From assembly GCA_020444475.1 (NCBI GenBank), contig JAHLKV010000005.1:299080-331079 (forward strand): a DNA stretch of 32,000 nucleotides, in the 5' to 3' direction. A program made the position numbers and the translations under genes. Within the stretch, counting starts at the first letter, position 1; each line of letters starts with the position of its first letter. Shown one piece after another: positions 3,314-19,207 of this stretch. The DNA is from a bacterium. GTDB taxonomy: Bacteria > Zixibacteria > MSB-5A5 > GN15 > FEB-12. The notes under the pieces were generated by a model. It had not been told where the DNA came from, did not search any database, and saw only the letters and a program-made list of their open reading frames with translations.

Positions 3314-3560
3314 CAACGAGTCCGCCTGCTTCGCAGTTATATACGCAGAGGCGCGGTCGGGGTCAAGTCTATCACATGGCACGGGCGCGTTTGATGACAG
3401 CAGAGAATCCTTGACGAATGGCTACATATTTGTCTATGTTTCGGTATCGTTGCGGCGCGCTACCTGGTCAGTTCCCCGGGCCGTAACGCAGGGGTATCCA
3501 CTGCAGCTGGGCGGGCAAGGGCGCGGGTCAATCAAACTGCTCATAAGAGATCATACGATC

Positions 3561-6500
3561 ATGACGGACAACCAAGTACTCCCTCGCCATCGCCCCATCA
3601 TCCGGCTCTTCGTCAGTTCGACGTTTACTGACTTCAAGCATGAGCGCGATGTTCTTCAGCGCGAAGTCTTCCTGAAGCTGGAACGACACTGCGCAAAACG
3701 GCAGTTTCAGTTTCATGCGGTCGATCTGCGCTGGGGTGTTCCTACCGAGGCCAATAAAGACCACCGCACCATGCGCATCTGTTTTGAGGAACTCCGTCGG
3801 TCGCAGGAGATCTCGCCTCAACCTAATTTCTTGATCCTGATGGGTAACCGCTACGGCTGGCAACCCCTGCCCGAAGAGATCTCTGAGGACGAGTTCAACC
3901 AACTCCATCGGGTAGCCTTGCCGGATCGGGAGAGAACGATACTTGGAGAGTGGTACAATCGGGACGACAACGCCCTCCCCCCTGTCTACATCCTTCAATC
4001 CCGCAAGATCAAGCGTAATGACGGCCGGGACTACACCGATGACGAGGTGTGGAAGGGAATCCAAAGTACACTATGGGATATTATCAATCGCGCCTATCCG
4101 GATAACGGACTCGCCGAGCGTTTCGCCCATCACGTGGCACTCGACCAGCCGCTGCCGTCAGTCGTGCGCTTCCAGGCGTCCGCCACCGAGCAGGAAATCT
4201 GGCGCGGTGCCCTCGGAGCGCCAAACACCAAAGAACATGTGCTGGCCTTTATCCGTGAGATTGAGAACCTGGCCGACTTTCCGCAAGCCGACCAGATCGG
4301 CCAGTTTGTCGATGTCGAAAAGCATGAGGTCAACGCGGTTTCGCAGACTGCCCTGAATGATCTCAAGACCGAAGTCATCAAGAGGCTTGGAGACGGCAAC
4401 ATAATCACGAGCGATCCGGTGCGACTGCTGTTGGCGACAGACAGGGATGGCAGACCATCGGCTGACGTTTCCACCGAGCACCTGCCGGAGATGTGCACCC
4501 GCATCTATACCGCTCTGGAGAGCATCATCGACCGGCAGATGAATGAATACTGGGACACCGAAGGTACCGATGTGGCTCCCTCGCGATTACTCGAGCTGGA
4601 ACGCAACGAGCACCGGCTTTTTGGCCGGGAGCGGGCGCCGATTGAGTCCTTTGTCGGGCGGCAGCGGCCTCTTGAGACTATCGGCGACTATATCAACAAC
4701 CAAACTCAGGGGCTGCTGGTGATTCATGGAGCCTCCGGCTGCGGCAAGACGGCGCTATTGGCCCGCGCCGCACAGGAGGTTGCCCCGGAGCGGCATCCGA
4801 TTGTTCGGTTCATTGGTGTGACACCTCACACGTCCGATATCCGCTCATTGCTCAGCAGTCTATGCCAGGAACTGCGGGAGCGCCATCCTATCGACAGCCC
4901 GCTACCCACAGAGTACCAGCCGCTGGCGCAGGAGCTGTTGCAGCATTTAAACGCCGCTACGGCCGAAGAGCCGGTGATCCTATTCTTAGATGCCCTGGAC
5001 CAGCTGGCCGACTCCGATGACGGCCGCTCCCTGCACTGGCTGCCGACCGATCTCTTGCCTGAACATGCGAAAGTGATCGTCTCTTGTCTCTCCGAGCGCG
5101 CCCCCGAGGATCCGGCCGGACGGCCGTATGCCGCACTCAGGGAGCGCGTACTCTCGGACAAGAACTTCATTGATCTTGACGCGCTGGCTCCCGAGGAAGC
5201 CCGGGAACTTCTTTTTGATCGTTGGCTTCCGCAGGCGGGACGACGGCTCGATGCCGAGCAGTCCGAAACTGTCGCCAGGCAGATGGAAAAGCAAAGCTGT
5301 CGGGCGCCTCTCTATTTGAAGATTCTTTTCGAAGAGGCCCGCCTGTGGCGCTCATCTGAACCTGTGCCAGAACTGGGAGACGATGTCCCGGCACTGCTTG
5401 GTGATTTGCTTGATCGTCTCGGCGATTCTTCCAACCACGGGATAACGGTAGAACGCGCGCTCGGCTATATCGCGTCGGCGCGTCGGGGCCTGGCGGAATT
5501 GGAGATTCTGGAGGTCCTTTATCGCGATCCGGAATACAGGTCATTCCTCGACCGAGTCACAGAAAAGACCGGTCATACCCTGCCGGACATTCCGCCTCGG
5601 ATACCGATTGCCATCTGGGCACGACTTCGTTCTGATCTGGCGCCGTATCTGTCCGAGCAGGCCGCGCCCGGCGCCACCGTGCTGAACTTCTACCACCGCC
5701 AGATGTCTGAAACGGTGCGGGGAAGGTTTCTCAAAGGTGAGAAGAGATGCCGGCATTTTCACACGTCGTTAAGTGAGTATTTCGATAGCAGGAATCTGGA
5801 TTCGCGCAAAGTTGATGAACTCCCCTGGCAGCTGGCTGATGGGACAGCCTGGCAGAGGCTGTATGAGCTGCTGTCCGATGCGGACTTTCTTAGGGCTATA
5901 TGGATTTATAGTGGTTATGATGTCAAAACTTATTGGGCACGCATTGAAGAGTCCTCGAACCTGACACAGCTCAACGGCTATAGAGATGCCATAGAGTGTC
6001 CAGAATCAGAGCCCGACAAGAAATTCCTCGGGACGATAGCACTGCTGCTTTTCGACACGGGTCATCTTGACGAATCGTTCGAACTCGCACAGCACCTAAT
6101 AGAATACCATCGGCAGGCTTATGACGCTCGCAGATTCTTGGCATGCCTTACTCTGCAATCGAACATACTTCAGTTGCGCGGACGGTTCATAGAGGCCCTC
6201 CAGTCGCTACAGGAGGCAGAACAGTTTTCTCGGCAAATAGGAGACAAGACAGCCATAATGATCAGCATAGGCAACCAAGCCCCGATCTATTTGTCGCAGG
6301 GCAATCTTGACTGCGCCATGGAGAAGAGCCAACAGCAAGAACTTATTAGCCGGGAACTTGGTAGCATGAGCGGACTTCAGGCCAGTTTGGGAAACCAAGG
6401 GATGGTCCTGTATCGTCGTCGCGACTTTGACGCTGCTATGGCGAAGTTCAAGAACCAGACATCGATCTGCCGAGAATCGGGTAACATGACCGGGCTCTCA

Positions 6501-7508
6501 ACTAGCCTCAACAATCAGGCTTTGGTCCACATGGCTCAGGGAAATCGGGATGTGGCGCTCAGACTGCATGAAGAAGCAGCGCGCATCTGCCTTGCACTAG
6601 GTGACAAGGATGGTCTGCAGGCGAGTCTGGGGAACCAAGCCGAGATTCACGGAGCACGAGGGGATCCCGACAAGGCGATATCACTGTTGTCCCACCAAGA
6701 GTTGCTATGTCGGGAACTAGGAAACAAGGGCGGCTTACAGGTCAGCCTTGCGAACCAAGCGAGTCTACACTATAACCGCAACAACCTTGAGAAGGCGATG
6801 TCCGTACTAAAGGAGCAGGAACAGATCTGCAGTGAACTTGGAAGCAAAAAGGACCTTCAGGCTTGTATTGGCAGACAGGCTGCTATAGCCTCGAAGCAAG
6901 GTAACCCTGATCGCTCATTGATGTTACTCATGGAAGAGGAGCAGCTTTGCCGTACACTTAATGATAGACACAACCTACAGTCCAGCTTAGGCAATCAAGT
7001 CTTGATGCTGTACGAGATAGGAGATTTCTGCGGCGCCATGACGAGATTAAAGGAGCAAGAAACACTGTGCCGCGAACTGGGGGAACAGAAAGCACTGCGA
7101 GATAACCTTGCCAGGCAGGCCGGAGTTCACTATGCGCTTGGTGATCTCAATAGCGCTATGGATGTGCTTGAAGAAGATGAGCAACTGTGTGTTGAGCTAC
7201 AGGACATGGAAGGACTCCAAGAGAGTCTTGGACATCAGGCAAAGATTCTCCATGAATGGGGAGAACTTGATACGGCGATGATGGCATATGGGGCGCAAGA
7301 GAGTATTTGCCGTAGGTTGGAGAAGTTAGATAGCTTGGCCAGATCCTTGAAACGTCAATCTGAGATACTGTGTGAAACTACGCAGTTCCATAAGGCTTCG
7401 AGGAAGGCGAGGGAAGCCTTCGAATTGGCCTCACGACACGGTTTTTCTGATCTTCGCTTGGAGATCGAGGCTGTTCTTAAAGAGATACGACAACAGATAG
7501 ACGAATGA
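3561..7508 (+). CDS. STAND NTPase: DUF4062-type N-terminal domain + P-loop NACHT-like module + 40-aa TPR-like repeat array
   Basis: N-terminus: IRLFVSSTFTDFKHERDVL. Walker A GASGCGKT at 4728-4751. Walker B ILFLDALDQ near 4977-5003. Ten in-register 40-aa repeats plus a cap follow. ATG3561 is preferred; the track start at 3411 is a TTG that only adds non-domain residues. Confidence 0.9.
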   Translation: MTDNQVLPRHRPIIRLFVSSTFTDFKHERDVLQREVFLKLERHCAKRQFQFHAVDLRWGVPTEANKDHRTMRICFEELRRSQEISPQPNFLILMGNRYGWQPLPEEISEDEFNQLHRVALPDRERTILGEWYNRDDNALPPVYILQSRKIKRNDGRDYTDDEVWKGIQSTLWDIINRAYPDNGLAERFAHHVALDQPLPSVVRFQASATEQEIWRGALGAPNTKEHVLAFIREIENLADFPQADQIGQFVDVEKHEVNAVSQTALNDLKTEVIKRLGDGNIITSDPVRLLLATDRDGRPSADVSTEHLPEMCTRIYTALESIIDRQMNEYWDTEGTDVAPSRLLELERNEHRLFGRERAPIESFVGRQRPLETIGDYINNQTQGLLVIHGASGCGKTALLARAAQEVAPERHPIVRFIGVTPHTSDIRSLLSSLCQELRERHPIDSPLPTEYQPLAQELLQHLNAATAEEPVILFLDALDQLADSDDGRSLHWLPTDLLPEHAKVIVSCLSERAPEDPAGRPYAALRERVLSDKNFIDLDALAPEEARELLFDRWLPQAGRRLDAEQSETVARQMEKQSCRAPLYLKILFEEARLWRSSEPVPELGDDVPALLGDLLDRLGDSSNHGITVERALGYIASARRGLAELEILEVLYRDPEYRSFLDRVTEKTGHTLPDIPPRIPIAIWARLRSDLAPYLSEQAAPGATVLNFYHRQMSETVRGRFLKGEKRCRHFHTSLSEYFDSRNLDSRKVDELPWQLADGTAWQRLYELLSDADFLRAIWIYSGYDVKTYWARIEESSNLTQLNGYRDAIECPESEPDKKFLGTIALLLFDTGHLDESFELAQHLIEYHRQAYDARRFLACLTLQSNILQLRGRFIEALQSLQEAEQFSRQIGDKTAIMISIGNQAPIYLSQGNLDCAMEKSQQQELISRELGSMSGLQASLGNQGMVLYRRRDFDAAMAKFKNQTSICRESGNMTGLSTSLNNQALVHMAQGNRDVALRLHEEAARICLALGDKDGLQASLGNQAEIHGARGDPDKAISLLSHQELLCRELGNKGGLQVSLANQASLHYNRNNLEKAMSVLKEQEQICSELGSKKDLQACIGRQAAIASKQGNPDRSLMLLMEEEQLCRTLNDRHNLQSSLGNQVLMLYEIGDFCGAMTRLKEQETLCRELGEQKALRDNLARQAGVHYALGDLNSAMDVLEEDEQLCVELQDMEGLQESLGHQAKILHEWGELDTAMMAYGAQESICRRLEKLDSLARSLKRQSEILCETTQFHKASRKAREAFELASRHGFSDLRLEIEAVLKEIRQQIDE
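6135..7334 (+). repeat. 10 tandem in-frame 120-bp (40-aa) coding repeats
   Basis: Units follow the pattern LQxSLGNQAxxxxxxGxxxxAMxxxxxQExICRELGxxxG and stay exactly in register. A divergent terminal cap occupies 7335-7505. Confidence 0.85.
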
Positions 7509-7551
7509 GAGGCTCCGATTCCGGCAAGCCGCAAACAATCAGGACCCTAGT

Positions 7552-7848
7552 ATGGAGCATTGTAGCCAAGCAAATGATCTTTTTAGTTCTCGCAATAATT
7601 ACGGGGCGATGGCGCCTCTGAAAGAACAAGAGAGGATCTGCCGCCAGCTGGGGAATGTGAAGGGCGTGGCAATATCGCTTGCCAATCAGTCCATCATCCT
7701 GGCCAAAGCGGGTCGGGTACAGGAAGGGTTGTCAAAGATAGAAGAAGCTCATCAGATGGCAGTCAAGTATGGTTACGCGGCTGTCGCGGCCCAAATCGAG
7801 CCAATGCTCTACGCCATCCGCCAGGCCGCGGAGGGGAGCAAACAGTGA
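7552..7848 (+). CDS. 98-aa stand-alone repeat/cap protein, paralogous to the C-terminus of the upstream STAND protein
   Basis: YGAMAPLKEQERICRQLGNVKGVAISLANQSIILAKAG.. follows the same 40-aa repeat grammar. The tail AAQIEPMLYAIRQAAE mirrors LRLEIEAVLKEIRQQIDE. AGGA lies 7 nt before ATG7552. Confidence 0.6.
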   Translation: MEHCSQANDLFSSRNNYGAMAPLKEQERICRQLGNVKGVAISLANQSIILAKAGRVQEGLSKIEEAHQMAVKYGYAAVAAQIEPMLYAIRQAAEGSKQ

Positions 7849-7999
7849 GGAGCCAACCGTACCCCAATCCCCGTCGCCAGAATAGACTCCATCCTGTATC
7901 TTTAGTGCAGGACCGGATGGTCACGCAAGATTCGTTGCGGATATGCGTGTGAGGCCAGAACCACAGTCCGGGCGTTGGCGCCCAGGAAGGAAATGATCG

Positions 8000-10900
8000 A
8001 TGGCAATCTATCAGAATAAAAACGCTAACCAGGTAGTCGTGGCTGGCGACATCTGTCTCGACATTCTGGCCGTCCCCAGACCGCCCCGCAAGCCGACCGA
8101 CAAGGTCGTCGATAACTGGCGTCTCACCGGCGAGATGCGCACGCACCACATGCTCGGAGGGGCCTGCCTGCTCGCGGACTTTGTGGAGTGCGCCATACAA
8201 ACGGCCAGGGATGAGGCTGAAGCCAAGGCTAAGGCCGAAGCTGAGGCTGCAGATAAGGCTGAGACCAAAGAGAAGGAAAAGGGAAAAGAAAGGGAAAAAG
8301 AAAAGGCTGTAATCATCACCGGCCCGGTGAGCAAACCGGTCATCGGATATCCGGACGATTTGGCTGACGTCGGGGGAGCCCAAGATCCGCTATCGAGCGA
8401 CCGTCTGGCCAGGCTGAACCGCAATGAAGTGGTCCATTCCATGCTGGAACTGTGCGAGGAGCCTGACGAAAAGGACAAAAAGAAGAAGATCTGGCGGGTG
8501 AGCCAGGCGCACGGCTTCTCCGGTCCGGACAACGGCAACCCCGTGCTTCGGCCCTGGATCGAGCACGACAACCCGGCGGCCGAACTTGTGATCCTCGACG
8601 ATACCGGCAATTCGTTCCGGAAGGACGAAAGCATGTGGCCGCGGGCGCTATCCACCCCCGGCAGCAAGCCGCTCGTTATCTATAAGCTGCATCGTCCTCT
8701 GCCTGGCTGCTGTGGACCCGCCGATGAGGTAATCGAGAACAAGCTCTGGGATCTGGTTGTGAGAGACCATCACGACCGCTGTGTCGTGGTTATCGACGTC
8801 AACGACCTGCGTGACCAGGGGGCGGTAATCAGCCGCGGACTCTCCTGGGAGAAGACCGCACTTGAGCTGGTCTGGCATCTACGTGGCGATGTTCGGTTCG
8901 CCGCGCTTCGGAATTGCCGCTATCTGATCGTGCGTTTCGGCTTGGACGGGGCGCTACTCTATCAGTATGACGGCAAGAATCCGCTGCCCGACATACAGCT
9001 CATCTATGACCCGAAGGAATCGGAGGACGGGTATCGCGGCAAACGCAAAGCCGGGATGGTGGGGACAGGCAGCGCTTTCACCGCCTGGCTGGCGGTCCAG
9101 TTCAACTCTCGGGTGAAGATGTTGAGTGGGATTTCGGGCGACGAATTGAACAAGAAGAAAACCGGGGCCTTGCTCTGGGCCGTCAAGGAAGGTCTCGCCG
9201 CATCGCGGACCGCCTTTGATGCCGGCTTTGGGGAGGTGTCGGAAGAAGATCCCAAGTACCCCGAACCGGCGCTCGCCGAATTGAAGAAGGCGGCAGGCGG
9301 ATTCAGGAGCATAGCCATTCCCCTGTTCAGGGACGCCTTCGATGCCGATCCGAAAAAGTGGACCGTGCTGGACGCCCTGTTCGCTCCCGGCAGCAGGCTG
9401 GAAGATACCGCGGAGCGGGCCCTCAGAGAGGCCGAAGTCACGGATCTGGACGCGGTTCCGCTCGGAGTCTTCAAAGACCTGCGTACGTACGATCGCTTCG
9501 AGATCGAAGGTTATCGTTCGATTTTCACCATCATGCATGAGTACATTCACAACCCCGGTCCGGAACGACCGCTGTCGATGGCCGTGTTTGGGCCTCCCGG
9601 GTCGGGCAAGTCTTTTGGCATCAAGCAGGTTGCAGAGTTGGTCAGAGGCGACGCCAAGCTGGATGTGCTGACGTTCAATCTCTCCCAGTTCACGGATACA
9701 GAGGAACTTGCCGCCGCGTTTCACCTCGTCCGCGACAGCTCGGTGCGAGGACGCATTCCGCTTGTGTTCTTTGATGAATTCGACACAGGAATGTCAGGTG
9801 AAAAGCTCTTCTGGTTGAAACACTTCCTGGCGCCGATGCAGGACGGCCTGTTCATGGACCGTGGCGCCGCTCACCCGATCGGCAAAGCGATCTTCGTGTT
9901 TGCAGGCGGGATCTATTCGAGCTTTGAGAAGTTCAATATCCAGCCGGAGAAGCCGGCTCAGCCTGGAAAAACGCAGGATCAGCCCCGGGTCGATGAGGCG
10001 GTCAAAGACACAGACCAGAGTCAGACTTCCGTGCAAACTGATGCCGCTGAGCCTCTCATCTATGGGGACTTCAAGGATGCCAAAGGCCCGGACTTTGTCA
10101 GTCGCCTCCGTGCGCTTCTGGACATCACAGGCATTGAACATGTGGGGTTGCCGACGGCCAGTGCACTGTTGCGGAGGGCATCGATTCTGCGCTTCCAACT
10201 GAAGAACAAAGCCAAAGGTGCGTTTGATGTTGACGGGGGTCTCCAGATAGACCCGAGCCTGGCGCGGGCGTTGCTGCAGGTGCCGAGATATCATCACGGT
10301 GTACGCTCGATGGAAGCCATCCTCGACATGAGTCGGATCGGCAGCTGTCGCCACCTCACGCCGTCCTGCCTGCCGCCGCAGGAGCAGATGGACCTTCATG
10401 TCGCATCAGAGGAGTTCTCCAATCTCCTCCGTGCGCCGCTGACATTTGGCAAGACGGACCTCGATATTATCGCCCGAGCTATTCATGAGGACTATCTTGC
10501 ACAACGAAAAAGCGACGGCACCTACGATGCGGCGGAGCCTACCCATAAGCGGTGGGAGGAATTCAATGAACTACTGGAGAAGGACAAGGAGACCATTGAC
10601 TCCAACCGCGAACAGGCGCGCATGATCCCCATCCGCCTGCGATCGATCGGCGCTTATGTGCGCAAGTCGGCCGCTGGCAGGCCGACCGAAGACGTTCCCC
10701 CACTTGCTGAGAAACACATTGAGTCTCTTGCGAAGCAAGAGCATGACCGGTGGATGGCGGAGAAGTTCCGGAAAGGCTGGATCTATGGCAAGCCACGCGA
10801 CAACGACCGTCGCATCCATCCGTGCCTGTTGCCGTGGGATCACGAGGACTTTCCCGAGTTCGAAAAGGATAAGGATCGGCGGACGATTCGCATGATACCG

Positions 10901-11155
10901 TCGTTTCTTGATGCCGCCGGCTGGGAGATCATCCCCCCGGATGAATCGGAGATTGGCAATCCGTCAGCAAAGGCAAAAACGACCAGGGCCGCAGCGGGGG
11001 AAAAGAGGCGCACGGCCGAAAAAACCGCTCGCAAGACCGTGCGGAAGTCAGCGCGAAAAGCAGTGCGCAAGACCTTGCGAAAGACTGGCGCCAAGCCCAC
11101 ACGCCCTCGCCCCAAAAAAGAGGCTTCCAAGGCGAAAAACAAGAGAAGGCCGTGA
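8000..11155 (+). CDS. Multidomain protein: divergent ribokinase/PfkB-like N-domain + AAA+ ATPase + two RyR-type repeats + Lys/Arg-rich tail
   Basis: VVVAGDICLD, LGGACLLA and MVGTGSAFTAWLA are PfkB-signature-like. Walker A GPPGSGKS at 9591-9614. Walker B FFDEFD at 9767-9784. RyR-like segments: IHEDYLAQRK.. and EHDRWMAEKFRKGWIYGKPRDNDRRIHPCLLPWD..EKDKDR (about 10465-10935). Tail: KTARKTVRKSARKAVRKTLRKTGAKPTRPRPKK. Confidence 0.85.
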   Translation: MAIYQNKNANQVVVAGDICLDILAVPRPPRKPTDKVVDNWRLTGEMRTHHMLGGACLLADFVECAIQTARDEAEAKAKAEAEAADKAETKEKEKGKEREKEKAVIITGPVSKPVIGYPDDLADVGGAQDPLSSDRLARLNRNEVVHSMLELCEEPDEKDKKKKIWRVSQAHGFSGPDNGNPVLRPWIEHDNPAAELVILDDTGNSFRKDESMWPRALSTPGSKPLVIYKLHRPLPGCCGPADEVIENKLWDLVVRDHHDRCVVVIDVNDLRDQGAVISRGLSWEKTALELVWHLRGDVRFAALRNCRYLIVRFGLDGALLYQYDGKNPLPDIQLIYDPKESEDGYRGKRKAGMVGTGSAFTAWLAVQFNSRVKMLSGISGDELNKKKTGALLWAVKEGLAASRTAFDAGFGEVSEEDPKYPEPALAELKKAAGGFRSIAIPLFRDAFDADPKKWTVLDALFAPGSRLEDTAERALREAEVTDLDAVPLGVFKDLRTYDRFEIEGYRSIFTIMHEYIHNPGPERPLSMAVFGPPGSGKSFGIKQVAELVRGDAKLDVLTFNLSQFTDTEELAAAFHLVRDSSVRGRIPLVFFDEFDTGMSGEKLFWLKHFLAPMQDGLFMDRGAAHPIGKAIFVFAGGIYSSFEKFNIQPEKPAQPGKTQDQPRVDEAVKDTDQSQTSVQTDAAEPLIYGDFKDAKGPDFVSRLRALLDITGIEHVGLPTASALLRRASILRFQLKNKAKGAFDVDGGLQIDPSLARALLQVPRYHHGVRSMEAILDMSRIGSCRHLTPSCLPPQEQMDLHVASEEFSNLLRAPLTFGKTDLDIIARAIHEDYLAQRKSDGTYDAAEPTHKRWEEFNELLEKDKETIDSNREQARMIPIRLRSIGAYVRKSAAGRPTEDVPPLAEKHIESLAKQEHDRWMAEKFRKGWIYGKPRDNDRRIHPCLLPWDHEDFPEFEKDKDRRTIRMIPSFLDAAGWEIIPPDESEIGNPSAKAKTTRAAAGEKRRTAEKTARKTVRKSARKAVRKTLRKTGAKPTRPRPKKEASKAKNKRRP
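8267..8306 (+). repeat. 40-nt uninterrupted homopurine tract inside a low-complexity coding insert
   Basis: aaagagaaggaaaagggaaaagaaagggaaaaagaaaagg contains only A and G. It encodes part of EAEAKAKAEAEAADKAETKEKEKGKEREKEKA (8211-8310). Confidence 0.9.
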
Positions 11156-11205
11156 TGGTGTCTCGTATCGATGTGAACTAATCGTGAGGCCAGGGAACAG
11201 AGACG

Positions 11206-14200
11206 ATGCCATATGATATCTTTGTCAGTTACTCACGGCGCGATAATAATCGTGGACAGGTATCTCAGCTCATCGGGCAGATTCGTGATGACTGCGAACA
11301 ACTGACCGGTGATGAACTCCGGTGTTTCTTCGATCTGGAAGAAATCCGGAGTATGGATGACTGGCGCCATCGCATTCTCGGCGGACTGCGCGAGTCAAAG
11401 ATCTTCCTGCTGATTCTGTCACCCGCCTATCTTGCCAGCGACTATTGTCAGTGGGAGATTGTCGAGTTCCTCAAATACGAGCACTCACGCGCCGTCCAGG
11501 GACAGGGGGTCGCCCAGATCTATTTCGTTGAAATTCCCGATCTCGATTCCCCGGACTCCCAGCAGGAAGCGACAGAGTGGCTGGCCGGCGTTCGAAGACG
11601 CAACCACATTGACCTGAGACCGTGGTACAATGACGGTGCCGCTGCCCTGGCACAGGATGACGTGCGCGAACGACTGGCCGATCTCGAACGCTCGATCTCA
11701 CACCGACTGACACGGTTAAAGCGTATCGTCAACGCTCCCGGCAACCTGCCGGCCCACAATCCCCGGTTTGTCGGTCGGGAAACGGAAATGGAACGGCTCC
11801 ATAGGGCGGCCGGGCTGGGCCAGTACGGTATCCTCACGGCTGTCCAGGGAGTCGGTGGTCTCGGTAAGACCGCGCTCGCCATACAATACGCCTACGCCTA
11901 CGCCGACTTCTATCCGGGCGGGAGATGGATGATCGGATGTGCCGGGCGGGACGATCTGGCCGGCGCTATTCGGAGCCTTGATGTCGACCTGGGGGTTCAG
12001 TTCACCGACGACGAGAAAACCGATGATACCCGGGCTGCCAGGCGCATCCTGGCCAACATGCGTGAGCGGGCAGAGAAGGGAGCCGCCGAGCGGGCCGCAG
12101 AACCAAACCCGCCCTCGGCGAGAGCGCTGATAATCCTGGACAATGTCGACGCCCCCGACATGCTCCGGCCGCCGCAGATCGATCTGGTCTCCGGTCAGAA
12201 CTGGCTCCACGTGATTGCGACCACCCGGCTTGATCCCGGTGAGACCGGCTGGGACACCGATCGCCACACCCACGTCCCGGTGGATGAGCTTCCCGATGAT
12301 GACGCCCTTCGCCTGATCGAAAGCCATCAGCCTGATGGCCGCTTTCAATCGGAGACGGAGCGCGACGCCGCCCGGGAGATTGTCGGTCTGCTGGGAGGTT
12401 TCACCCTGGCGGTCGAAGTGGTGGCGGTGCATCTCGGTGAGCGGCACGGCCGGCTGAGATGCGCGGATCTGCTGACGAGGCTTCGTCGCGACGGGGTCGA
12501 TGCAATCGCCAAAGAAACGAGGCGTTCGGTCAATCATGTTGAACGGCTGATGTCGGTCACGCTGGCGCCGACTTTGGAGCTGCTCAGTGAGCCTGAACTC
12601 GAGGTGCTCACGACCGCATCGCTCTGCCCGCCTGACAGTGTGGTGCTGCCGTGGTTGCGGGCGGTGGTGGCCGAACGGTATCCGGAGTTGGGACGCGATG
12701 CTGAACCGGGGTATGATGATCCCTGGTCAAGCCTGGTCAACCATCTGATAGGCCTGCGCCTGCTGCAGGTGATTGACTGGGCCGATGACACCATCACGCC
12801 TCGCATCTGCCGCATGCACCGAGTGGTGCTGTCGGCTGTCCGGCAGCGCGCGCAGGAGGAGATGACTGAAAGGAGAGACAGCCTTCTGCGGGTGGCGCTG
12901 GACCGTGCTGGATTCCTGAAGAGAGAGTGGCTTGAGTGGACCAACCGCTGGGAAATTGAACCACTGGCTCAGTTTGCTGAGCACCTGTCGGAAGTGGATT
13001 CTGAGGATGCTTGTAGAATTAACAGACTCGCTGCCTTGTGCTTAGATAAGATTGGTCTTCATCGTGCTGCTGTGCCTATACTGCGGATGGTTTTAGAGTC
13101 GCGCGAGCAGTCACTCGGTTCGGATCATCCAGATACCCTGAGTATCGTGAATGATTTGGCCGCACAACTTGAAAAAAGCGGAGACTATACCTCGGCCGAA
13201 CCTCTTCTCCGACGGGCGCTGGCCGCACGGGAGAGGTTGTTCGGCCCCTATCATCGAGACACACTTACCACTGTCAATAATCTGGCGTTTTTGCTACAAA
13301 TCAAGTGCGATTTCCCCTCGGCCGAGTTACTGTACCGCCGGGCTCTGGCAGGGCGCGAGCAGTCTCTCGGTATTGATGATCCCGACACCTTGACCAGCCT
13401 TAACAATCTTGGTACACTCTTAGTGTCCAAAGGTGACCTTATCTCAGCCGAGCCTCTCCTCTGTCAGGCACTGAATGGACGTGAAAGGACACTTGGTCCT
13501 GAGCATCCAGAAACGCTGGTCGTTGCGAACAATCTGGCCGCCTTGTTCCGGCGCAGAGGTGATCTCGAATCGGCCGAAGCTCTGTATCGGCGTGCGTTTG
13601 AAGGAAGTGAGCGAGCACTCGGTTCTGATCACCCGATGACCCTGTCAAAGGCAAGCAATTTGGCCCTCTTGCTGGAGCGCAAAGGAGACCACAAGGCGGC
13701 CGCGTCCTTGCGTCAGCTAGCGCTGAAGGCAAGCGAGCGAGTACTCGGACCTGATCACCCAGATACTCTCACTTGCGTTAATTGCTTAGCTGATTCGCTG
13801 AAGAACGAGGGAGACGTCGAGTCGGCTCTGACTCTTTCTTGGCGTGTACTCAGAGGGCGTGAGCGAGTGTTAGGACCTGATCATCCTCACACCCTCGACA
13901 GTGCCAGCGCCGTCGCCTTGTTGCTCCAGAGAAAGGGCAGCTACGATCAATCTGAGGACCTAAACCGGCGGGCGTTGGAAGGGCGTGAGCGAGTGCTCGG
14001 TCGTGATCATCCGGATACTCTTACCAGCGTCAACAATCTTGCCTATGTGCTTCAATGCAAAAGGCATTACGACGCGGCCGAGCTACTCTTAAGACGGGGA
14101 TTGGCGGACAGTGAGCGGGTGCTGGGTCCTGATCACGCACATACCCTCACATTCGTTCACAATCTGGCCCATATGTTGCAAAGCAAGGGCGTATATGGGC

Positions 14201-15003
14201 TGGCGGAGTCCTTATATCGGCGCGCGGCGGAAGGACGCGGAAGGGTGCTGGGCGTTGATCATCCGGACACGCTCACCAGCGTCCACAATCTTGCCCATGT
14301 GCTTCAATATAGGGGCGAGCTTGATTCAGCCGAGCCGCTGTACCGGCGGGCGCTGGAAGGAAACGAGCGGGTGCTGGGTCCTGATCATCCGGATACCCAC
14401 ACCGTTGCCCAGAACTTTGCCGGTCTATTGGAGAAGATGGGAAGACACGCAGAGTCAACAGAACTCCGTCGAAAGCGAATCGCGATCCTGGCCGCGAAGC
14501 CTGAGACGCCTCCACTTACGCTTCGCCATCTTGCACTCGACAGTTACAAGGTGGAGGACTATGAGACGGCCGAGGGATTGCTCGTTCGTGTGCTCAATGC
14601 CGATTTCGAAGTACCCGGAACCCGATGCCATCTCGCCCGCGTGTGTCTGATAAACAACAACGATACAGAAGCGGCTCTGCATGCAGAAGAAGCCTGGCGG
14701 CGTGTGGCTGAGGCACCACCGTACATAGTGGGGCGTATTCTCTGGTTCAAGACGCTCTTCGCCTTGCTAAACAGCGCCCCCTCGGATCCGTTCGTAGGCA
14801 GGCTCAAGATGGTCATGCAATCCGACGATGCTCACTTGGGCTGGGACATGGCTCGAGTGCTGGAGCACCTCAAGCCCCGTCTGCCTGCTGACCAGCACGC
14901 CTTTCTCGCTGCCCTCATAGCAGCGTTGAGCGATCAGGCGAATGGTGGCGCGCTCGACCAATTCGAGTGGTGGCGCAACGCAATCCCACAACCTATCACA
15001 TGA
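11206..15003 (+). CDS. TIR - NB-ARC/STAND ATPase - TPR (TPR_10/12, kinesin-light-chain-like) protein
   Basis: N-terminus YDIFVSYSRRD, with SDYCQWEIVEF carrying the TIR Glu at 11455-11457. Walker A GVGGLGKT at 11848-11871. Walker B LIILDNVD at 12127-12150. Eleven LGPDHPDTLTSVNNLA-type 42-aa repeats follow. Confidence 0.95.
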   Translation: MPYDIFVSYSRRDNNRGQVSQLIGQIRDDCEQLTGDELRCFFDLEEIRSMDDWRHRILGGLRESKIFLLILSPAYLASDYCQWEIVEFLKYEHSRAVQGQGVAQIYFVEIPDLDSPDSQQEATEWLAGVRRRNHIDLRPWYNDGAAALAQDDVRERLADLERSISHRLTRLKRIVNAPGNLPAHNPRFVGRETEMERLHRAAGLGQYGILTAVQGVGGLGKTALAIQYAYAYADFYPGGRWMIGCAGRDDLAGAIRSLDVDLGVQFTDDEKTDDTRAARRILANMRERAEKGAAERAAEPNPPSARALIILDNVDAPDMLRPPQIDLVSGQNWLHVIATTRLDPGETGWDTDRHTHVPVDELPDDDALRLIESHQPDGRFQSETERDAAREIVGLLGGFTLAVEVVAVHLGERHGRLRCADLLTRLRRDGVDAIAKETRRSVNHVERLMSVTLAPTLELLSEPELEVLTTASLCPPDSVVLPWLRAVVAERYPELGRDAEPGYDDPWSSLVNHLIGLRLLQVIDWADDTITPRICRMHRVVLSAVRQRAQEEMTERRDSLLRVALDRAGFLKREWLEWTNRWEIEPLAQFAEHLSEVDSEDACRINRLAALCLDKIGLHRAAVPILRMVLESREQSLGSDHPDTLSIVNDLAAQLEKSGDYTSAEPLLRRALAARERLFGPYHRDTLTTVNNLAFLLQIKCDFPSAELLYRRALAGREQSLGIDDPDTLTSLNNLGTLLVSKGDLISAEPLLCQALNGRERTLGPEHPETLVVANNLAALFRRRGDLESAEALYRRAFEGSERALGSDHPMTLSKASNLALLLERKGDHKAAASLRQLALKASERVLGPDHPDTLTCVNCLADSLKNEGDVESALTLSWRVLRGRERVLGPDHPHTLDSASAVALLLQRKGSYDQSEDLNRRALEGRERVLGRDHPDTLTSVNNLAYVLQCKRHYDAAELLLRRGLADSERVLGPDHAHTLTFVHNLAHMLQSKGVYGLAESLYRRAAEGRGRVLGVDHPDTLTSVHNLAHVLQYRGELDSAEPLYRRALEGNERVLGPDHPDTHTVAQNFAGLLEKMGRHAESTELRRKRIAILAAKPETPPLTLRHLALDSYKVEDYETAEGLLVRVLNADFEVPGTRCHLARVCLINNNDTEAALHAEEAWRRVAEAPPYIVGRILWFKTLFALLNSAPSDPFVGRLKMVMQSDDAHLGWDMARVLEHLKPRLPADQHAFLAALIAALSDQANGGALDQFEWWRNAIPQPIT
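13114..14499 (+). repeat. 11 tandem in-frame 126-bp (42-aa) coding repeats, including a younger 252-bp two-unit duplication
   Basis: Units are in register from L637. Units 8 (13996) and 10 (14248) match at roughly 80-85% over their first ~60 nt by eye. Units 9 and 11 both open with gtgctgggtcctgatca. Confidence 0.85.
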
Positions 15004-15135: not shown

Positions 15136-15648
15136 ATGACTGAAGACGTACAGGTCGATCCGCATGGTCTTAGAGAGTTGCTCGACAATTACCTGTCCAG
15201 AGCAGAGGCCGCCTGGCCAGGCGGGCAGGCGGCTGACTGGGCTCGCGAGTTTCTCCGGCGTTTCAAGTTAGACCGCGCCGACGAAGTGTGCCTTCTGGGA
15301 GCCGCATGCATGAGGGAGTCATTGACCGACGGCAAACGTCACAGTACTGCAGTCGCAAACTCTGATATATTTGTGTCGATTTCCACTTTTCCCTGTGGAC
15401 TGGAGGAGGCGCGCACAGCCTACTTCGCAAACGGCTATTTCGATTACCTGAACTCGATTCTGCGCGTTGCATTGACGGATAATCCCCGAAACCACTTCGT
15501 CCACATACTATTCTTCTGTGACCGAAAGAACTGTTGGGCGCAATTCACATTATTTCCCAATAGAGATAATCTGGGCTTTGATCCCCTGTATAGTCTTCCG
15601 GATGAACTATTGAGTGAATCGGAGAGACGCCAGGTGGGTCTCGCTTAA
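15136..15648 (+). CDS. Hypothetical protein (no recognisable motif)
   Basis: ORF ending at TAA15646-15648. GGGGGA lies 8 nt before ATG15136. ATG15100 and the track's 15082 are alternative starts. Confidence 0.5.
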   Translation: MTEDVQVDPHGLRELLDNYLSRAEAAWPGGQAADWAREFLRRFKLDRADEVCLLGAACMRESLTDGKRHSTAVANSDIFVSISTFPCGLEEARTAYFANGYFDYLNSILRVALTDNPRNHFVHILFFCDRKNCWAQFTLFPNRDNLGFDPLYSLPDELLSESERRQVGLA

Positions 15649-15735: not shown

Positions 15736-16059
15736 TCACTCCCCTCGGCGCCAGCGGCGCCAATCGGCGGCATGCTTCTTGATCCAGTCCATTGCCGCCG
15801 AGTCACCAACATCCATACCTGCCTTCTCGGACTCGATCCACTTATGCTTCTCTATCTCGCGCCATTGTTCGGTCAGTTCCTTGCGTAGCCGTTCATGCCG
15901 CCACTTCGAAGCGTGATGCACCAGCCAGTGGGCGATGGCGTAGGCCATCCCCACGTCGCGACCGGCCTCCTTTGACAGAAAGTACTTGTGTGTCTCGATT
16001 GCCTTCCGTTCCTCGCGGGTGAGTTCATCTTCCGAGTATTGATCGATCCTGTCACACAT
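15736..16059 (-). CDS. Small (107-aa) helical protein with an internal tandem duplication
   Basis: It has two copies of one motif: ETHKYFLSKEAGRDVGMAYAIAHWLVHHASKWR and EKHKWIESEKAGMDVGDSAAMDWIKKHAADWR. ATG16059 overlaps the upstream stop by 8 nt (ATGTGTGA), so it is preferred over the track's 16140 start. Confidence 0.65.
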   Translation of the reverse strand: MCDRIDQYSEDELTREERKAIETHKYFLSKEAGRDVGMAYAIAHWLVHHASKWRHERLRKELTEQWREIEKHKWIESEKAGMDVGDSAAMDWIKKHAADWRRWRRGE

Positions 16060-18016: not shown

Positions 18017-18026
18017 ATGCTATCCT

Positions 18027-19178: not shown

Positions 19179-19207
19179 ATGATCTTACTTCCCAGTATCT
19201 CTTGCCG

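What the first reader, a model, noticed from the sequence alone, without database searches (positions are those of the whole stretch)
3561..15003. Two differently armed STAND NTPases bracket a PfkB-like/AAA+/RyR gene in one co-directional block
Gene order is: DUF4062-NACHT-repeat, mini-cap protein, PfkB-like/AAA+/RyR, TIR-NB-ARC-TPR. All are on the plus strand, with gaps of 43, 151 and 50 nt. Stand-alone bacterial STAND (Avs/NLR-like) genes normally act alone. Here two of them flank a third NTPase whose N-domain looks like a ribose/nucleoside-binding fold.

One testable idea follows. TIR-generated ADP-ribose-type signals could be read by the PfkB-like domain and passed to the AAA+/RyR/DNA-binding-tail part. 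That is inference only.
Basis: inference. Interest (0 to 1): 0.65.

Follow-up and report, generated by a model that had tools for sequence, protein, structure and literature searches.

The report
NADase-armed STANDs flank an RyR-domain ATPase
Two NLR-like immune sensors, each carrying an NAD+-cleaving head, flank a previously undescribed ATPase whose tail is a ryanodine-receptor "Repeat12" domain, a fold recently shown to bind cyclic ADP-ribose immune signals; the same pairing recurs across many bacterial and archaeal phyla, which points to a new signal-relay immune module.

Summary
There are four co-directional genes with gaps of 43, 151 and 50 nt:
- DUF4062–STAND–TPR
- a 98-aa copy of that protein's last repeat
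- a 1051-aa three-module protein
- TIR–NB-ARC–TPR

The middle protein has three parts:
- an N-domain with a ribokinase/PfkB fold, seen only at fold level, with Ser where the GAGD motif appears to place the catalytic Asp
- an intact ClpB-D2-like AAA+ ATPase
- a complete two-repeat RyR Repeat12 (R12) domain

Preprints from 2026 change how this block reads. DUF4062 ("NIR") is a TIR-like NADase. Phage RyR-domain proteins bind or cleave 2'/3'cADPR. The phage ligand residues H75, W78, H100 and D117 correspond to H915, W918, H940 and D959 here.

The middle protein belongs to a large uncharacterised cellular family of about 1,900 50%-identity clusters. In all 8 distinct contexts examined for relatives ≥50% identical, it sits within 4 genes of a TIR- or DUF4062-carrying gene, in seven of them a STAND. 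Other RyR-domain enzymes and NUDIX are often nearby. TIR–AAA+–RyR fusions also exist. The exact four-gene order is not conserved, because the partners swap.

Best reading (confidence about 0.5): the STAND heads make ADPR-type products, and the R12 domain, not the PfkB-like domain, senses them and switches the AAA+/N-domain output. The main rival is a defence island of independent genes. All evidence is in silico.

The parts
3561..7508 (+). Gene 1 (1315 aa): an Avs/NLR-like STAND NTPase with an N-terminal DUF4062 ('NIR') TIR-like NADase head and a C-terminal array of about 40-residue TPR-like repeats.
   Evidence: Pfam hits to DUF4062, AAA_16, NACHT, nSTAND1 and TPR_MalT. The same gene is called on the source contig.
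3603..3887 (+). DUF4062/NIR domain of gene 1 (residues 15-109). The candidate catalytic Glu is E77, in the motif 'ICFEEL'.
   Evidence: Pfam PF13271 over residues 15-109. phmmer hit to the human TEP1 fragment in PDB 11gz, E 2.9e-14, with 'riCFeEl' aligned to 'evCLgEv'. NADase activity of this domain family is taken from the papers 10.64898/2026.05.01.722283 and 10.64898/2026.09.04.749371.
4644..5312 (+). STAND P-loop NTPase core of gene 1 (residues about 362-584).
   Evidence: AAA_16 364-486, NACHT 386-516 and nSTAND1 362-584.
6039..7505 (+). TPR-like repeat array of gene 1 (residues about 827-1315), the presumed sensor.
   Evidence: TPR_MalT and TPR_12 hits. The internal approximately 40-aa repeats are visible in the self-comparison with gene 2.
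7552..7848 (+). Gene 2 (98 aa): a free-standing paralogue of the last repeat plus C-terminal cap of gene 1.
   Evidence: BLASTP to gene 1 residues 1239-1311, 36% identity, E 3e-11. It is 85% identical in the closest relative L082, with the same 151-nt gap to the next gene. It is absent from more distant loci.
8000..11155 (+). Gene 3 (1051 aa): a ribokinase-fold N-domain, an AAA+ ATPase and a two-repeat RyR Repeat12 domain. It belongs to a large uncharacterised cellular family.
   Evidence: The family has 1,931 50%-identity clusters at E<=1e-30, at least 508 loci in GTDB genomes and only 1 relative in IMG/VR.
8000..9394 (+). N-domain of gene 3 (residues 1-465): a PfkB/ribokinase-like fold. Invariant residues are D17, G53, D201, K229, R271, S282-W283-E284 and E342. 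The GAGD-equivalent motif reads G355-T-G-S358. There is a copy-specific low-complexity insert at residues 69-103.
   Evidence: AlphaFold model with pLDDT 90.9. The top 50 Foldseek hits are all PfkB-family kinases. Residue conservation comes from a 71-sequence alignment. The motif alignment to 'GAGC' of 7l07 is marginal, E 0.13.
9455..10399 (+). AAA+ ATPase module plus lid of gene 3 (residues about 486-800). Walker A is GPPGSGKS (K537) and Walker B is LVFFDEFD (D592/E593). Arg702, Arg725 and Arg726 are invariant. An invariant N-L-S-Q-F/Y motif sits at the pore-loop-1 position.
   Evidence: Pfam AAA. Model with pLDDT 88.5. Foldseek matches to ClpB NBD2 and Skd3/CLPB. Invariance. The profile alignment to Mpa/Rpt1 places NLSQF opposite 'NKFVG'.
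10445..10930 (+). RyR Repeat12-like domain of gene 3: repeat 1 (residues 816-884, diverged) and repeat 2 (904-977), which carries the ligand tetrad H915, W918, H940 and D959.
   Evidence: Pfam RyR, 54.9 bits. PDB sequence hits to RyR1-3 R12 and the Bacteroides RyR-like protein. Foldseek aligns about 195 columns to the whole human RyR3 R12 domain, TMt 0.59-0.65. Two repeats are found by a local HMM. Direct alignment to RyDEP gp78 maps H75/W78/H100 to H915/W918/H940.
10952..11152 (+). Basic low-complexity tail of gene 3 (residues 985-1051). It is not conserved.
   Evidence: It is absent from the 87%-identical P0002 (959 aa). Nucleotide identity with L082 stops at window position 10887.
11206..15003 (+). 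Gene 4 (1265 aa): a TIR-NB-ARC-TPR STAND NTPase.
   Evidence: Pfam hits to TIR_2, NB-ARC, TPR_10 (E 3e-101) and TPR_12. NCBIfam hit to FxSxx_TPR.
11206..11640 (+). TIR domain of gene 4 (residues 1-145), with the catalytic-position Glu (E84, 'YCQWEIVE') retained.
   Evidence: TIR_2 over residues 5-143. The alignment to plant SNC1 TIR puts 'ycqwEiVE' opposite 'wClnElVE'.
11764..12558 (+). NB-ARC NTPase core of gene 4 (residues about 187-451).
   Evidence: Pfam NB-ARC 205-451 and AAA_16 187-315.
12973..14505 (+). TPR_10/TPR_12 repeat array of gene 4 (residues about 590-1100), the presumed sensor.
   Evidence: Pfam TPR_10 (10 stretches), TPR_12 (9 stretches) and TPR_NPHP3.

Best explanation
The block is one version of a recurrent, modular immune locus. 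Its constant element is a signal-sensing ATPase (gene 3). Its exchangeable elements are NLR-like STAND sensors whose N-terminal heads cleave NAD+.

Proposed sequence of events:
1. The TPR arrays of genes 1 and 4 recognise invader components and the STAND cores oligomerise. This is inferred from the known behaviour of Avs and NLR proteins.
2. The clustered DUF4062/NIR and TIR heads cleave NAD+ to ADP-ribose and/or cyclic ADPR isomers. Enzyme activity of both domain families is shown in the literature, and the catalytic Glu is retained here. The product of these particular proteins is unknown.
3. The product binds the C-terminal RyR Repeat12 domain of gene 3, in the pocket formed by H915, W918, H940 and D959. 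Binding or cleavage of 2'/3'cADPR and ADPR by phage R12 domains is shown in the literature. Here it is inferred from residue conservation.
4. Ligand binding switches assembly and ATP turnover of the ClpB-D2-like AAA+ module. This in turn activates the ribokinase-fold N-domain or uses it as an output. This step is inference, and the output chemistry is unknown. The canonical kinase Asp appears to be replaced by Ser, but a different set of polar residues is invariant.

Gene 3 would then be to NADase-armed STANDs what ThsA-type effectors are to ThsB in Thoeris, or what helper proteins are to plant TIR-NLRs. Gene 2 is a recent repeat/cap duplicate of uncertain role.
For: **Linkage across loci**
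- Gene 3 homologues have a TIR- or DUF4062-carrying gene at +1 in 10 of 69 GTDB loci, and within 3 genes in 18 of 70.
- In all 8 distinct contexts examined for homologues >=50% identical (L002, L082, L083/L084, L085, L086, L087, L089, L090), such a gene lies within 4 genes. In seven of them it is a STAND.
- Most are on the same strand with short gaps: 11, -4, 57, 14, 43 and 50 nt.
- Both head types occur together with gene 3 in at least 8 other loci: L087, L085, L008, L010, L003, L058, L025 and L086.

**Partner swapping**
- The 87%-identical copy L082 keeps gene 2 and gene 3. It has a DUF4062-STAND where the window has the TIR-STAND.

**Gene fusions**
- TIR-AAA+-RyR proteins exist (P0053, P0054, P0081). 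One of them lies directly beside a gene 3 homologue in L025.

**A shared sensor with varied effectors**
- Neighbouring genes encode RelA/SpoT-SLOG-RyR, TrkA_N-RyR and DSP-phosphatase-RyR proteins.
- Stand-alone RyR, NUDIX and SLATT-like proteins are also present.

**R12 chemistry**
- RyDEP and phage homologues cleave or bind 2'/3'cADPR at nanomolar affinity, using H75, W78, H100 and D117 (PMC13232231).
- These residues align to H915, W918 and H940 (blastp E 2e-4). D117 aligns to D959 by motif.

**Correlation with the ligand site**
- All 18 loci with a TIR/NIR neighbour keep Asp at position 959.
- None of the 33 loci with a hydrophobic residue there has such a neighbour (Fisher P = 8e-7). This is confounded by clade.

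**Competent enzymes**
- Walker A, Walker B and the Arg residues are invariant in 71 of 71 sequences.
- The TIR and DUF4062 catalytic-position Glu residues are present.
- DUF4062 NADase activity is shown in 10.64898/2026.05.01.722283 and 10.64898/2026.09.04.749371.

**Cellular, not viral**
- There are at least 508 genome loci against 1 IMG/VR contig.
Against: - Everything is comparative. No binding, activity or phenotype data exist for any member of the gene 3 family.
- TIR and DUF4062 heads on Avs-type STANDs are so far described as self-sufficient NAD+-depleting effectors, not signal generators (10.64898/2026.09.04.749371). The Thoeris survey deliberately excluded Avs TIRs.
- TIR/NIR genes are also somewhat frequent five or more genes away in the same loci (about 2.7%). 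So part of the signal is island clustering.
- About half of the family, mostly Firmicutes, has no TIR/NIR neighbour and lacks D959. The family as a whole therefore does not depend on these partners.
- The D959 correlation is not phylogeny-corrected.
- The exact four-gene order is found nowhere else.
- The output activity of the N-domain is unknown, and sequence profiles do not connect it to PfkB kinases.
- Sequence cannot say whether the R12 domain senses, sequesters or hydrolyses the ligand. RyDEP sponge and enzyme forms share the same residues.
- Co-transcription is not shown. The only support is the absence of terminator-like sites in the gaps.
Confidence: 0.5

Rival explanations
1. This is a defence island of independent single-gene systems. 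Gene 1 is an Avs-like NIR NADase and gene 4 a TIR-STAND NADase, and each senses and kills on its own by NAD+ depletion. Gene 3 is an unrelated defence or stress gene that lands in the same islands.
For: - PsAvs2 (DUF4062-STAND-TPR) works as a single gene (10.64898/2026.09.04.749371).
- The window is packed with other conflict-type genes, including a second TIR cluster and AAA+ clusters.
- TIR/NIR genes also occur five or more genes from gene 3 homologues at about 2.7%.
- Firmicutes homologues stand alone.
- Partner identity and order vary from locus to locus.
Against: - The enrichment peaks at the immediately adjacent position (14% at +1). These neighbours are mostly on the same strand with gaps from -23 to 60 nt.
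- All 8 contexts examined for the closest homologues have a TIR- or DUF4062-carrying gene within 4 genes.
- TIR-AAA+-RyR fusions exist.
- Co-resident RyR, SLOG and NUDIX genes all point to the same ligand class.
- Retention of D959 tracks the presence of the neighbours.
Confidence: 0.25
2. Gene 3 is a brake or recycler, not an effector. Its R12 domain hydrolyses or sequesters cADPR/ADPR leaking from the NADase heads, as a host-side RyDEP would. The ribokinase-fold domain and nearby NUDIX genes feed the ribose or ADPR back into metabolism. This prevents autoimmunity or resets the system.
For: - RyDEP is a glycosidase with the same H/D dyad, and it sits inside an NAD+-resynthesis operon.
- NUDIX genes accompany gene 3 homologues in L002, L032, L083/84, L089 and L090.
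- The ribokinase fold suggests ribose or nucleoside handling.
Against: - A simple hydrolase would not need an invariant AAA+ ATPase.
- The same R12 module is fused to toxin-like outputs (RelA/SpoT, TIR). That pattern fits a sensor better than a scavenger.
- The GAGD-equivalent position carries Ser, not Asp, in 57 of 71 sequences (motif alignment only marginal).
Confidence: 0.13
3. The PfkB-like N-domain is the receptor for TIR-made ADPR-type signals, and it passes the signal to the AAA+/RyR/basic-tail part, which acts on DNA.
For: - The N-domain has a ribokinase fold, which typically binds ribose or nucleosides.
- It has an invariant polar site but appears to lack the kinase catalytic Asp, as expected for a binding domain.
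Against: - The basic tail is absent from the 87%-identical copy and from most of the family.
- The R12 domain has direct experimental precedent as the (c)ADPR binder.
- In the TIR-AAA+-RyR fusions the N-position is occupied by an enzyme, not a sensor.
Confidence: 0.07

Closest known systems
Thoeris (ThsB TIR signal generator plus a ThsA-type effector carrying a ligand-sensing domain)
   Same: - A TIR-domain protein with the catalytic Glu lies next to a protein with a domain known to bind 2'/3'cADPR.
- One sensor domain is fused to many different outputs in related loci.
- NUDIX, SLOG and SLATT components are nearby.
   Different: - The TIR (or DUF4062) is the head of a large STAND/NLR-like protein rather than a small ThsB.
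- The putative receptor is an RyR Repeat12 domain. It is not SLOG or Macro, and RyR is not mentioned in the main text of the 29-type survey (10.64898/2025.12.03.692087).
- The effector is an AAA+ ATPase with a ribokinase-fold domain.
- No signal has been demonstrated.
Avs/AVAST and bNACHT anti-phage STAND NTPases, including NIR(DUF4062)-Avs2 (PsAvs2)
   Same: Genes 1 and 4 have the tripartite layout of effector head, STAND NTPase and repeat sensor. Gene 1 has the same DUF4062-STAND-TPR layout as PsAvs2.
   Different: - Known Avs proteins act as single genes. Here, and in many related loci, they are tightly linked to the gene 3 family.
- No PADLOC Avs model matches either protein.
[quoted passage not shown]
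   Same: - The same Pfam family (PF02026).
- The same two-fold R12 fold. In gene 3 it is formed within one chain, as in RyR3.
- The same H/W/H/D pocket residues.
   Different: - Gene 3 is cellular, not viral (1 IMG/VR hit).
- It is fused to AAA+ and a ribokinase-fold domain.
- It is linked to the NADase genes themselves, which suggests host-side sensing rather than evasion.
- Activity is untested.
Plant TIR-NLR to EDS1 to helper-NLR signalling
   Same: An NLR-like sensor with a TIR head is proposed to make a small NAD+-derived molecule, which is read by a separate downstream NTPase-containing protein.
   Different: There is no homology between the downstream components (AAA+ and R12 against EDS1 lipase-like and CC_R-NLR). 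This is an analogy only.
PfkB/ribokinase carbohydrate and nucleoside kinases
   Same: The overall fold of the N-domain. An N-terminal G-D...D motif and a GG-like motif are in the expected places.
   Different: - No profile-level sequence similarity.
- The GAGD-equivalent position is Ser in the window protein.
- There are large insertions (TM-score only 0.45-0.58).
NTP-dependent conflict systems of multicellular prokaryotes (Kaur, Burroughs, Iyer and Aravind 2020, PMC7159879)
   Same: Islands rich in STAND, AAA+, TPR, WD40 and TIR genes, with modular swapping of effector heads.
   Different: That paper mentions neither RyR, DUF4062 nor ribokinase-like domains.

Membership tests
RyR Repeat12 / RyDEP family (Pfam PF02026) | Match to the PF02026 profile above the gathering score | tested here: met
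   54.9 bits against a cut-off of 27.4, residues 901-977. PDB RyR1-3 R12 hits reach E 1.9e-20.
RyR Repeat12 / RyDEP family (Pfam PF02026) | Two-fold symmetric globular domain built from two repeats | tested here: met
   A local HMM finds two repeats, at 816-884 and 904-977. Foldseek aligns about 195 columns to the whole human RyR3 R12 domain (9ls7, 6uhi; TMt 0.59-0.65).
RyR Repeat12 / RyDEP family (Pfam PF02026) | Ligand-pocket residues equivalent to RyDEP H75, W78, H100 and D117 | tested here: met
   H915, W918 and H940 align directly (blastp 75-105 against 915-945, E 2e-4). D959 matches D117 by the K-D motif, although the automatic alignment is off by one residue. All four are invariant in the 15- and 47-sequence alignments.
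RyR Repeat12 / RyDEP family (Pfam PF02026) | Binds or cleaves 2'cADPR/3'cADPR | not testable with these tools
   This needs biochemistry.
PfkB/ribokinase kinase family | Ribokinase-like alpha/beta fold | tested here: met
   Model pLDDT 90.9. All top 50 Foldseek PDB hits are PfkB-family kinases, probability 1.0, E 5e-8 to 1e-5.
PfkB/ribokinase kinase family | Profile-level sequence membership (Pfam PF00294 or similarity to a bona fide member) | tested here: not met
   No Pfam hit even at E<=1. There is no PDB sequence or profile hit apart from a marginal 7l07 at E 0.13. hhalign against E. coli RbsK gives probability 0.08.
PfkB/ribokinase kinase family | GAGD anion-hole motif with the catalytic Asp | tested here: inconclusive
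   The topologically equivalent motif reads G355-T-G-S358-A-F at the N-terminus of helix 356-373. Position 358 is Ser in 57 of 71 sequences and Asp in 6 of 71. The equivalence rests on a marginal alignment and the model topology.
AAA+ ATPases (ClpB-D2/HCLR-like) | Walker A GxxxxGK[ST] and Walker B hhhhDE | tested here: met
   GPPGSGKS (K537) and LVFFDEFD (D592/E593) are invariant in 71 of 71 sequences.
AAA+ ATPases (ClpB-D2/HCLR-like) | AAA+ alpha/beta core plus helical lid fold | tested here: met
   Foldseek matches to ClpB NBD2 (4d2x, 4lj4), Skd3/CLPB (7ttr, 7xbk), ClpA, ClpX, RFC and Cdc6, all at probability 1.0.
AAA+ ATPases (ClpB-D2/HCLR-like) | Aromatic-hydrophobic-Gly pore loop 1, as needed for substrate threading | tested here: not met
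   The profile alignment to Mpa/Rpt1 places an invariant N-L-S-Q-F/Y motif opposite 'NKFVG', and the V-G is missing. This argues for a switch or assembly ATPase rather than an unfoldase, but it rests on a weak alignment.
Thoeris | TIR protein with the catalytic Glu, encoded next to the effector | tested here: met
   Gene 4 TIR_2 (E 4e-13) with E84 at the catalytic position. The gap to gene 3 is 50 nt.
Thoeris | Effector belonging to a described ThsA-to-ThsL type | tested here: not met
   Gene 3 has no PADLOC hit. The main text of the survey of 29 types mentions no RyR, ATPase or kinase; its effector table was not read.
Thoeris | The TIR produces a diffusible signal that activates the effector | not testable with these tools
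   This needs lysate transfer, LC-MS and effector assays.
Avs/AVAST-type STAND defence proteins | Tripartite layout: effector head, STAND NTPase, repeat sensor | tested here: met
   Genes 1 and 4.
Avs/AVAST-type STAND defence proteins | Sequence membership in the described Avs1-5 or bNACHT families | tested here: not met
   PADLOC gives only weak generic hits: TPR, mad8, PDC-S27 and PDC-S66.
Avs/AVAST-type STAND defence proteins | A single gene is sufficient for defence | not testable with these tools
   This needs phage-challenge assays.
DUF4062 / NIR TIR-like NADases | PF13271 match and conserved catalytic Glu | tested here: met
   36.7 bits against a cut-off of 24.7. Hit to the TEP1 fragment in PDB 11gz, E 2.9e-14, with E77 opposite the Glu of 'CLGE'.

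The most novel reading that the evidence does not exclude
NLR-like STAND proteins with TIR or DUF4062/NIR heads do not only deplete NAD+. They also act as signal generators for a dedicated class of RyR Repeat12-domain receptors fused to diverse outputs: the ribokinase-fold-AAA+ protein, RelA/SpoT-SLOG, TrkA_N, a phosphatase and TIR. This would be a prokaryotic 'sensor NLR, small molecule, helper ATPase' pathway. It would also be genetic evidence that the R12 domain is an ancestral (c)ADPR receptor, which bears directly on the long-disputed question of whether cADPR acts on animal ryanodine receptors through this domain.
Probability: 0.35. Interest if true: 0.9.

Novelty: new variant of a known kind. 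Interest (0 to 1): 0.72.

Why it matters
If the reading is correct, four things follow.
- It adds a new receptor domain (RyR R12) and a new effector class (ribokinase-fold AAA+ ATPase) to NAD+-derived immune signalling.
- It shows that Avs/NLR-type TIR and NIR heads can feed downstream partners rather than acting alone.
- It gives the roughly 1,900-cluster 'RyR domain-containing hypothetical protein' family a testable function.
- It ties together three findings from 2026: RyDEP cleaves or binds cADPR isomers, DUF4062/NIR is an NADase also present in human TEP1, NWD1 and NPHP3, and Thoeris signalling is diverse.

It also offers a tractable bacterial system for asking whether R12 domains, including those of animal ryanodine receptors, are true ADPR/cADPR sensors.

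Tried and rejected
- **PADLOC scan of the four proteins.** No known defence-system model matches gene 3, and only weak generic hits match the STANDs.
- **Sequence-level tests of the PfkB idea.** Pfam at E<=1, NCBIfam, phmmer and profile searches against PDB, and hhalign against E. coli RbsK all failed. Only the fold search supports it.
- **Exact four-gene order.** It was sought in 80 GTDB loci and 9 metagenome contigs and found in none. Only the closest relative (87%) keeps gene 2 and gene 3, and its downstream STAND is of a different type.
- **Gene 2 as a conserved adaptor.** Rejected. The small ORFs upstream of 52%-identical homologues are an unrelated Cys-rich 109-aa protein.
- **Basic C-terminal tail as a conserved DNA-binding module.** Rejected, because it is copy-specific.
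- **Gene 3 as a viral counter-defence gene.** Rejected. There is 1 relative in 2.9 million IMG/VR contigs.
- **Terminator and promoter scan.** Counts are not above shuffles and no terminator-like site lies in the three gaps. This is uninformative for operon structure.
- **tRNA and Rfam scans for island borders.** Nothing found.
- **Literature searches.** No host-side RyR-domain protein was found linked to TIR or STAND. The only relevant paper concerns phage RyDEP.

Full report
**1. Checking the observation**

The window holds four co-directional ORFs at 3561-7508, 7552-7848, 8000-11155 and 11206-15003. The gaps are 43, 151 and 50 nt, exactly as described. The window comes from a 99-kb contig of a Logan assembly (SRR14069906), and an independent gene call there gives the same four genes.

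Pfam confirms the following:
- Gene 1: DUF4062, then AAA_16/NACHT/nSTAND1, then TPR.
- Gene 3: AAA plus RyR (54.9 bits against a cut-off of 27.4).
- Gene 4: TIR_2, NB-ARC and TPR_10/12.
- Gene 2: no family.

Gene 2 is a paralogue of the last repeat and C-terminal cap of gene 1 (36% identity, E 3e-11).

No terminator-like site lies in the three gaps. That scan is no better than shuffled sequence, so co-transcription remains untested.

**2. Anatomy of the middle protein**

*N-domain.* It matches nothing by sequence. Searches with Pfam at E<=1, NCBIfam, PDB phmmer, PDB profile search and hhalign against E. coli ribokinase all failed.
- A model built on 47 homologues is confident (pLDDT 90.9, pTM 0.92).
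- Its 50 best PDB matches are all PfkB/ribokinase-family kinases, including pseudouridine kinase, LacC, ribokinase and HldA (probability 1.0, E from 5e-8, TM 0.45-0.58, 10-12% identity).
- The motif that sits where GAGD should be reads G-T-G-S358-A-F, at the N-terminus of a helix. A marginal profile hit aligns it to the 'GAGC' of 7l07.
- Across 71 family members position 358 is Ser in 57 and Asp in 6.
- A different set of polar residues is invariant: D17, D201, K229, R271, S282-W283-E284 and E342.
- I read this as a conserved site that is probably not a canonical kinase. That reading is an inference.

*AAA+ module and C-terminus.* The second model covers residues 471-1000 (pLDDT 88.5).
- The AAA+ module is closest to ClpB NBD2 and Skd3/CLPB.
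- Walker A, Walker B and several arginines are invariant in 71 of 71 sequences.
- The pore-loop-1 position carries an invariant N-L-S-Q-F/Y instead of aromatic-hydrophobic-Gly.
- The C-terminal 195 or so residues superpose on the whole human RyR3 Repeat12 domain (TM 0.59-0.65).
- They consist of two RyR repeats, at 816-884 and 904-977.

*Basic tail.* Residues 985-1051 are missing from the 87%-identical homologue and from most of the family.

**3. What recent literature adds**

- A May 2026 preprint (PMC13232231) shows that the mycobacteriophage RyR-domain protein RyDEP is a glycosidase. It opens 2'cADPR and 3'cADPR to ADPR. Other phage RyR-domain proteins are nanomolar sponges for the same signals. 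The pocket residues H75, W78, H100 and D117 are shared with animal RyR R12 domains.
- I retrieved RyDEP (MN234187, gene 78) and aligned it. H75, W78 and H100 fall on H915, W918 and H940 of gene 3 (blastp E 2e-4). D117 corresponds to D959 by the K-D motif, although MAFFT is off by one residue there. All four are invariant among the closer homologues.
- Three 2026 preprints show that DUF4062 ('NIR') is a TIR-like NADase giving ADPR plus nicotinamide. It is the effector head of an Avs2-type DUF4062-STAND-TPR protein, and it is present in human TEP1.
- Gene 1's DUF4062 aligns to the TEP1 fragment in PDB 11gz (E 2.9e-14) and keeps the Glu. Gene 4's TIR keeps the catalytic-position Glu.
- Both flanking STANDs therefore carry NAD+-cleaving heads, and the middle gene carries a domain with experimental precedent for binding the products.

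**4. Is the linkage real?**

*Size of the family.* The gene 3 family is large and cellular.
- It has 1,931 50%-identity clusters at E<=1e-30.
- There are at least 508 loci in GTDB species genomes from many bacterial phyla and methanogens.
- Only 1 relative occurs in IMG/VR.

*GTDB loci.* I called ORFs in 80 GTDB loci, clustered them and searched with locally built TIR, DUF4062 and RyR profiles.
- The commonest neighbour cluster is the DUF4062-STAND family of gene 1, with 22 proteins in 15 loci.
- A TIR or DUF4062 gene is at +1 in 10 of 69 loci. The binomial P is 2e-9 against a 1% background and 1.6e-5 against the 2.7% seen five or more genes away in the same loci.

*Closest relatives.* For homologues >=50% identical I examined 8 distinct contexts. 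In every one a TIR- or DUF4062-carrying gene lies within four genes, and in seven it is a STAND.

| Locus | Gene order |
|---|---|
| L087 | DUF4062-STAND / TrkA_N-RyR / 109 aa / gene 3 / TIR-STAND-WD40 |
| L085 | RelA_SpoT-SLOG-RyR / 150 aa / TrkA_N-RyR / 109 aa / gene 3 / TIR-NB-ARC-TPR / TIR-TPR / 39 aa / DUF4062 protein |
| L083 (also L084) | RelA_SpoT-RyR / gene 3 / NUDIX / DUF4062-STAND |
| L089 | RelA_SpoT-SLOG-RyR / DUF4062-STAND / NUDIX / gene 3 |
| L090 | gene 3 ... DUF4062-STAND (opposite strand) / NUDIX / RelA_SpoT-RyR |
| L002 | two DUF4062-STANDs, a RelA_SpoT-SLOG-RyR gene and NUDIX upstream of gene 3 |
| L086 | PFK-family gene / gene 3 / 66 aa / TIR protein; small DUF4062 proteins and a further TIR protein nearby; no STAND annotated |
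| L082 (87% identical) | gene 2 / gene 3 / DUF4062-STAND in place of the TIR-STAND |

*Further points.*
- Both head types accompany gene 3 in at least eight other loci.
- Most of these neighbours are on the same strand with short gaps.
- TIR-AAA+-RyR fusion proteins exist (P0053, P0054, P0081). One lies directly beside a gene 3 homologue.
- All 18 loci with a TIR/NIR neighbour keep Asp at position 959. None of the 33 with a hydrophobic residue there has one (P = 8e-7). This is largely a split between Firmicutes and the rest, so it is confounded by phylogeny.

*Caveats.*
- The exact four-gene order is found nowhere else.
- The Firmicutes half of the family has no conserved neighbours.
- The window itself is an island with further TIR and AAA+ clusters.

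**5. Most likely mechanism**

The pattern is one small-molecule-binding domain (R12) fused to many different enzymes, encoded beside NAD+-cleaving proteins and NUDIX. This is the signature of signal-based immune systems such as Thoeris, CBASS and type III CRISPR.

I therefore favour the following model:
1. The STANDs detect the invader.
2. Their TIR/NIR heads convert NAD+ to ADPR or cADPR-type molecules.
3. The R12 domain of gene 3 binds them.
4. The AAA+ module switches.
5. The ribokinase-fold domain delivers an as yet unknown output.

The layout of gene 3 (output, NTPase, sensor) mirrors that of the STANDs themselves, with a ligand-binding domain in place of the repeat array. The status of each step differs:
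- The domain identities, the conserved residues and the linkage are shown here.
- The enzymology of the TIR, NIR and R12 families is shown in the literature.
- Which product is made, whether R12 senses rather than degrades it, and what the N-domain does are all inferred.

I give this model a confidence of about 0.5.

Rival explanations:
- Independent genes in a defence island (0.25).
- Gene 3 as a brake or recycler, a host-side RyDEP (0.13).
This is weakened by the non-conserved tail and by the TIR-for-PfkB domain replacement in the fusions.

**6. Comparison with known systems and novelty**

- Genes 1 and 4 are Avs/NLR-like in architecture. Gene 1 has the same layout as PsAvs2. Neither gene matches any PADLOC Avs model.
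- The locus works most like Thoeris, but it fails membership. The TIR is part of a STAND, a class that the systematic Thoeris survey explicitly excluded. The main text of that survey mentions no RyR, ATPase or kinase.
- The RyDEP paper treats only viral R12 proteins.
- The 2020 survey of NTP-dependent conflict systems mentions neither RyR nor DUF4062.
- Within the literature I could search, the ribokinase-fold-AAA+-R12 family and its linkage to NADase-armed STANDs are undescribed.

I rate this a new variant of a known kind, namely NAD+-derived immune signalling. Interest is 0.72. It is high because it would link NLR-type TIR/NIR enzymes to RyR-domain receptors, and because it bears on the cADPR-RyR question. 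It is tempered because every step beyond architecture and linkage is inference.

Noticed in passing
window 24920-31120 (+): A second TIR-rich cluster. A sigma-54-type AAA+ activator (RtcR/PspF-like, PADLOC E 4e-82 over the AAA part) has a stop codon that overlaps the start of a TIR-NPHP3_N-TANC1-WH STAND (26611-28797). After these come a tandem-TIR ThsB-like protein (29084-29935) and a TIR-like 393-aa protein (29939-31120).
   Followed up: partly
window 16052-24645 (-): A minus-strand run of five genes: a 654-aa TPR protein, 383-aa and 757-aa proteins with no Pfam hit, a MoxR-like AAA_5 ATPase (336 aa) and a ClpB-D2-like AAA_2 ATPase (753 aa, weak PADLOC PDC-M37B hit). This may be another NTPase-centred conflict system.
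   Followed up: partly
window 2753-3382 (-): A NIF/CTD-like phosphatase (PF03031, E 1.6e-33) lies directly upstream of gene 1 and is transcribed divergently from it. Its relation to the block is unknown.
   Followed up: no
window 8204-8308 and 10952-11152: Gene 3 of this window has a low-complexity KAEAEA/KEKEK insert (residues 69-103) and a Lys/Arg-rich tail (985-1051). Both are missing from the 87%-identical homologue P0002, so they are recent copy-specific additions.
   Followed up: yes
L085 9594-9923 and L087 9594-9923: A conserved Cys-rich 109-aa ORF lies immediately upstream of the 52%-identical gene 3 homologues. It is unrelated to gene 2 and may be a small zinc-binding partner.
   Followed up: partly
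L086 2459-4513; L085 1-1939: Unusually long phosphofructokinase-family (PF00365) genes of 684-721 aa lie next to or near gene 3 homologues. Together with the ribokinase fold, this is a second sugar-kinase-like fold in these loci.
   Followed up: no
P0131: A fungal protein (Hortaea werneckii, 869 aa, annotated as RyR domain-containing) matches the AAA+-RyR module at E 3e-58. This suggests transfer of the family into fungi.
   Followed up: no
L016 7619-8659; L002 3465-6014; L016 2394-4205; L025 12499-14481: The R12/RyR domain is fused to many other N-terminal enzymes in the neighbouring genes: DSP/PTP phosphatase, RelA/SpoT plus SLOG, TrkA_N Rossmann domain and TIR-AAA+. In TrkA_N-RyR and TIR-AAA+-RyR the residue equivalent to H100 is Ser, which may indicate a different ligand preference.
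   Followed up: partly
P0137, P0139, P0144, P0145: Some relatives of the AAA+ module carry PF25199 instead of a RyR domain at the C-terminus. This may be a sensor-domain swap within the same ATPase family.
   Followed up: no
window 15136-15648 (+): A 170-aa ORF lies 132 nt downstream of gene 4. It has no family hit and no homologue in any related locus.
   Followed up: partly
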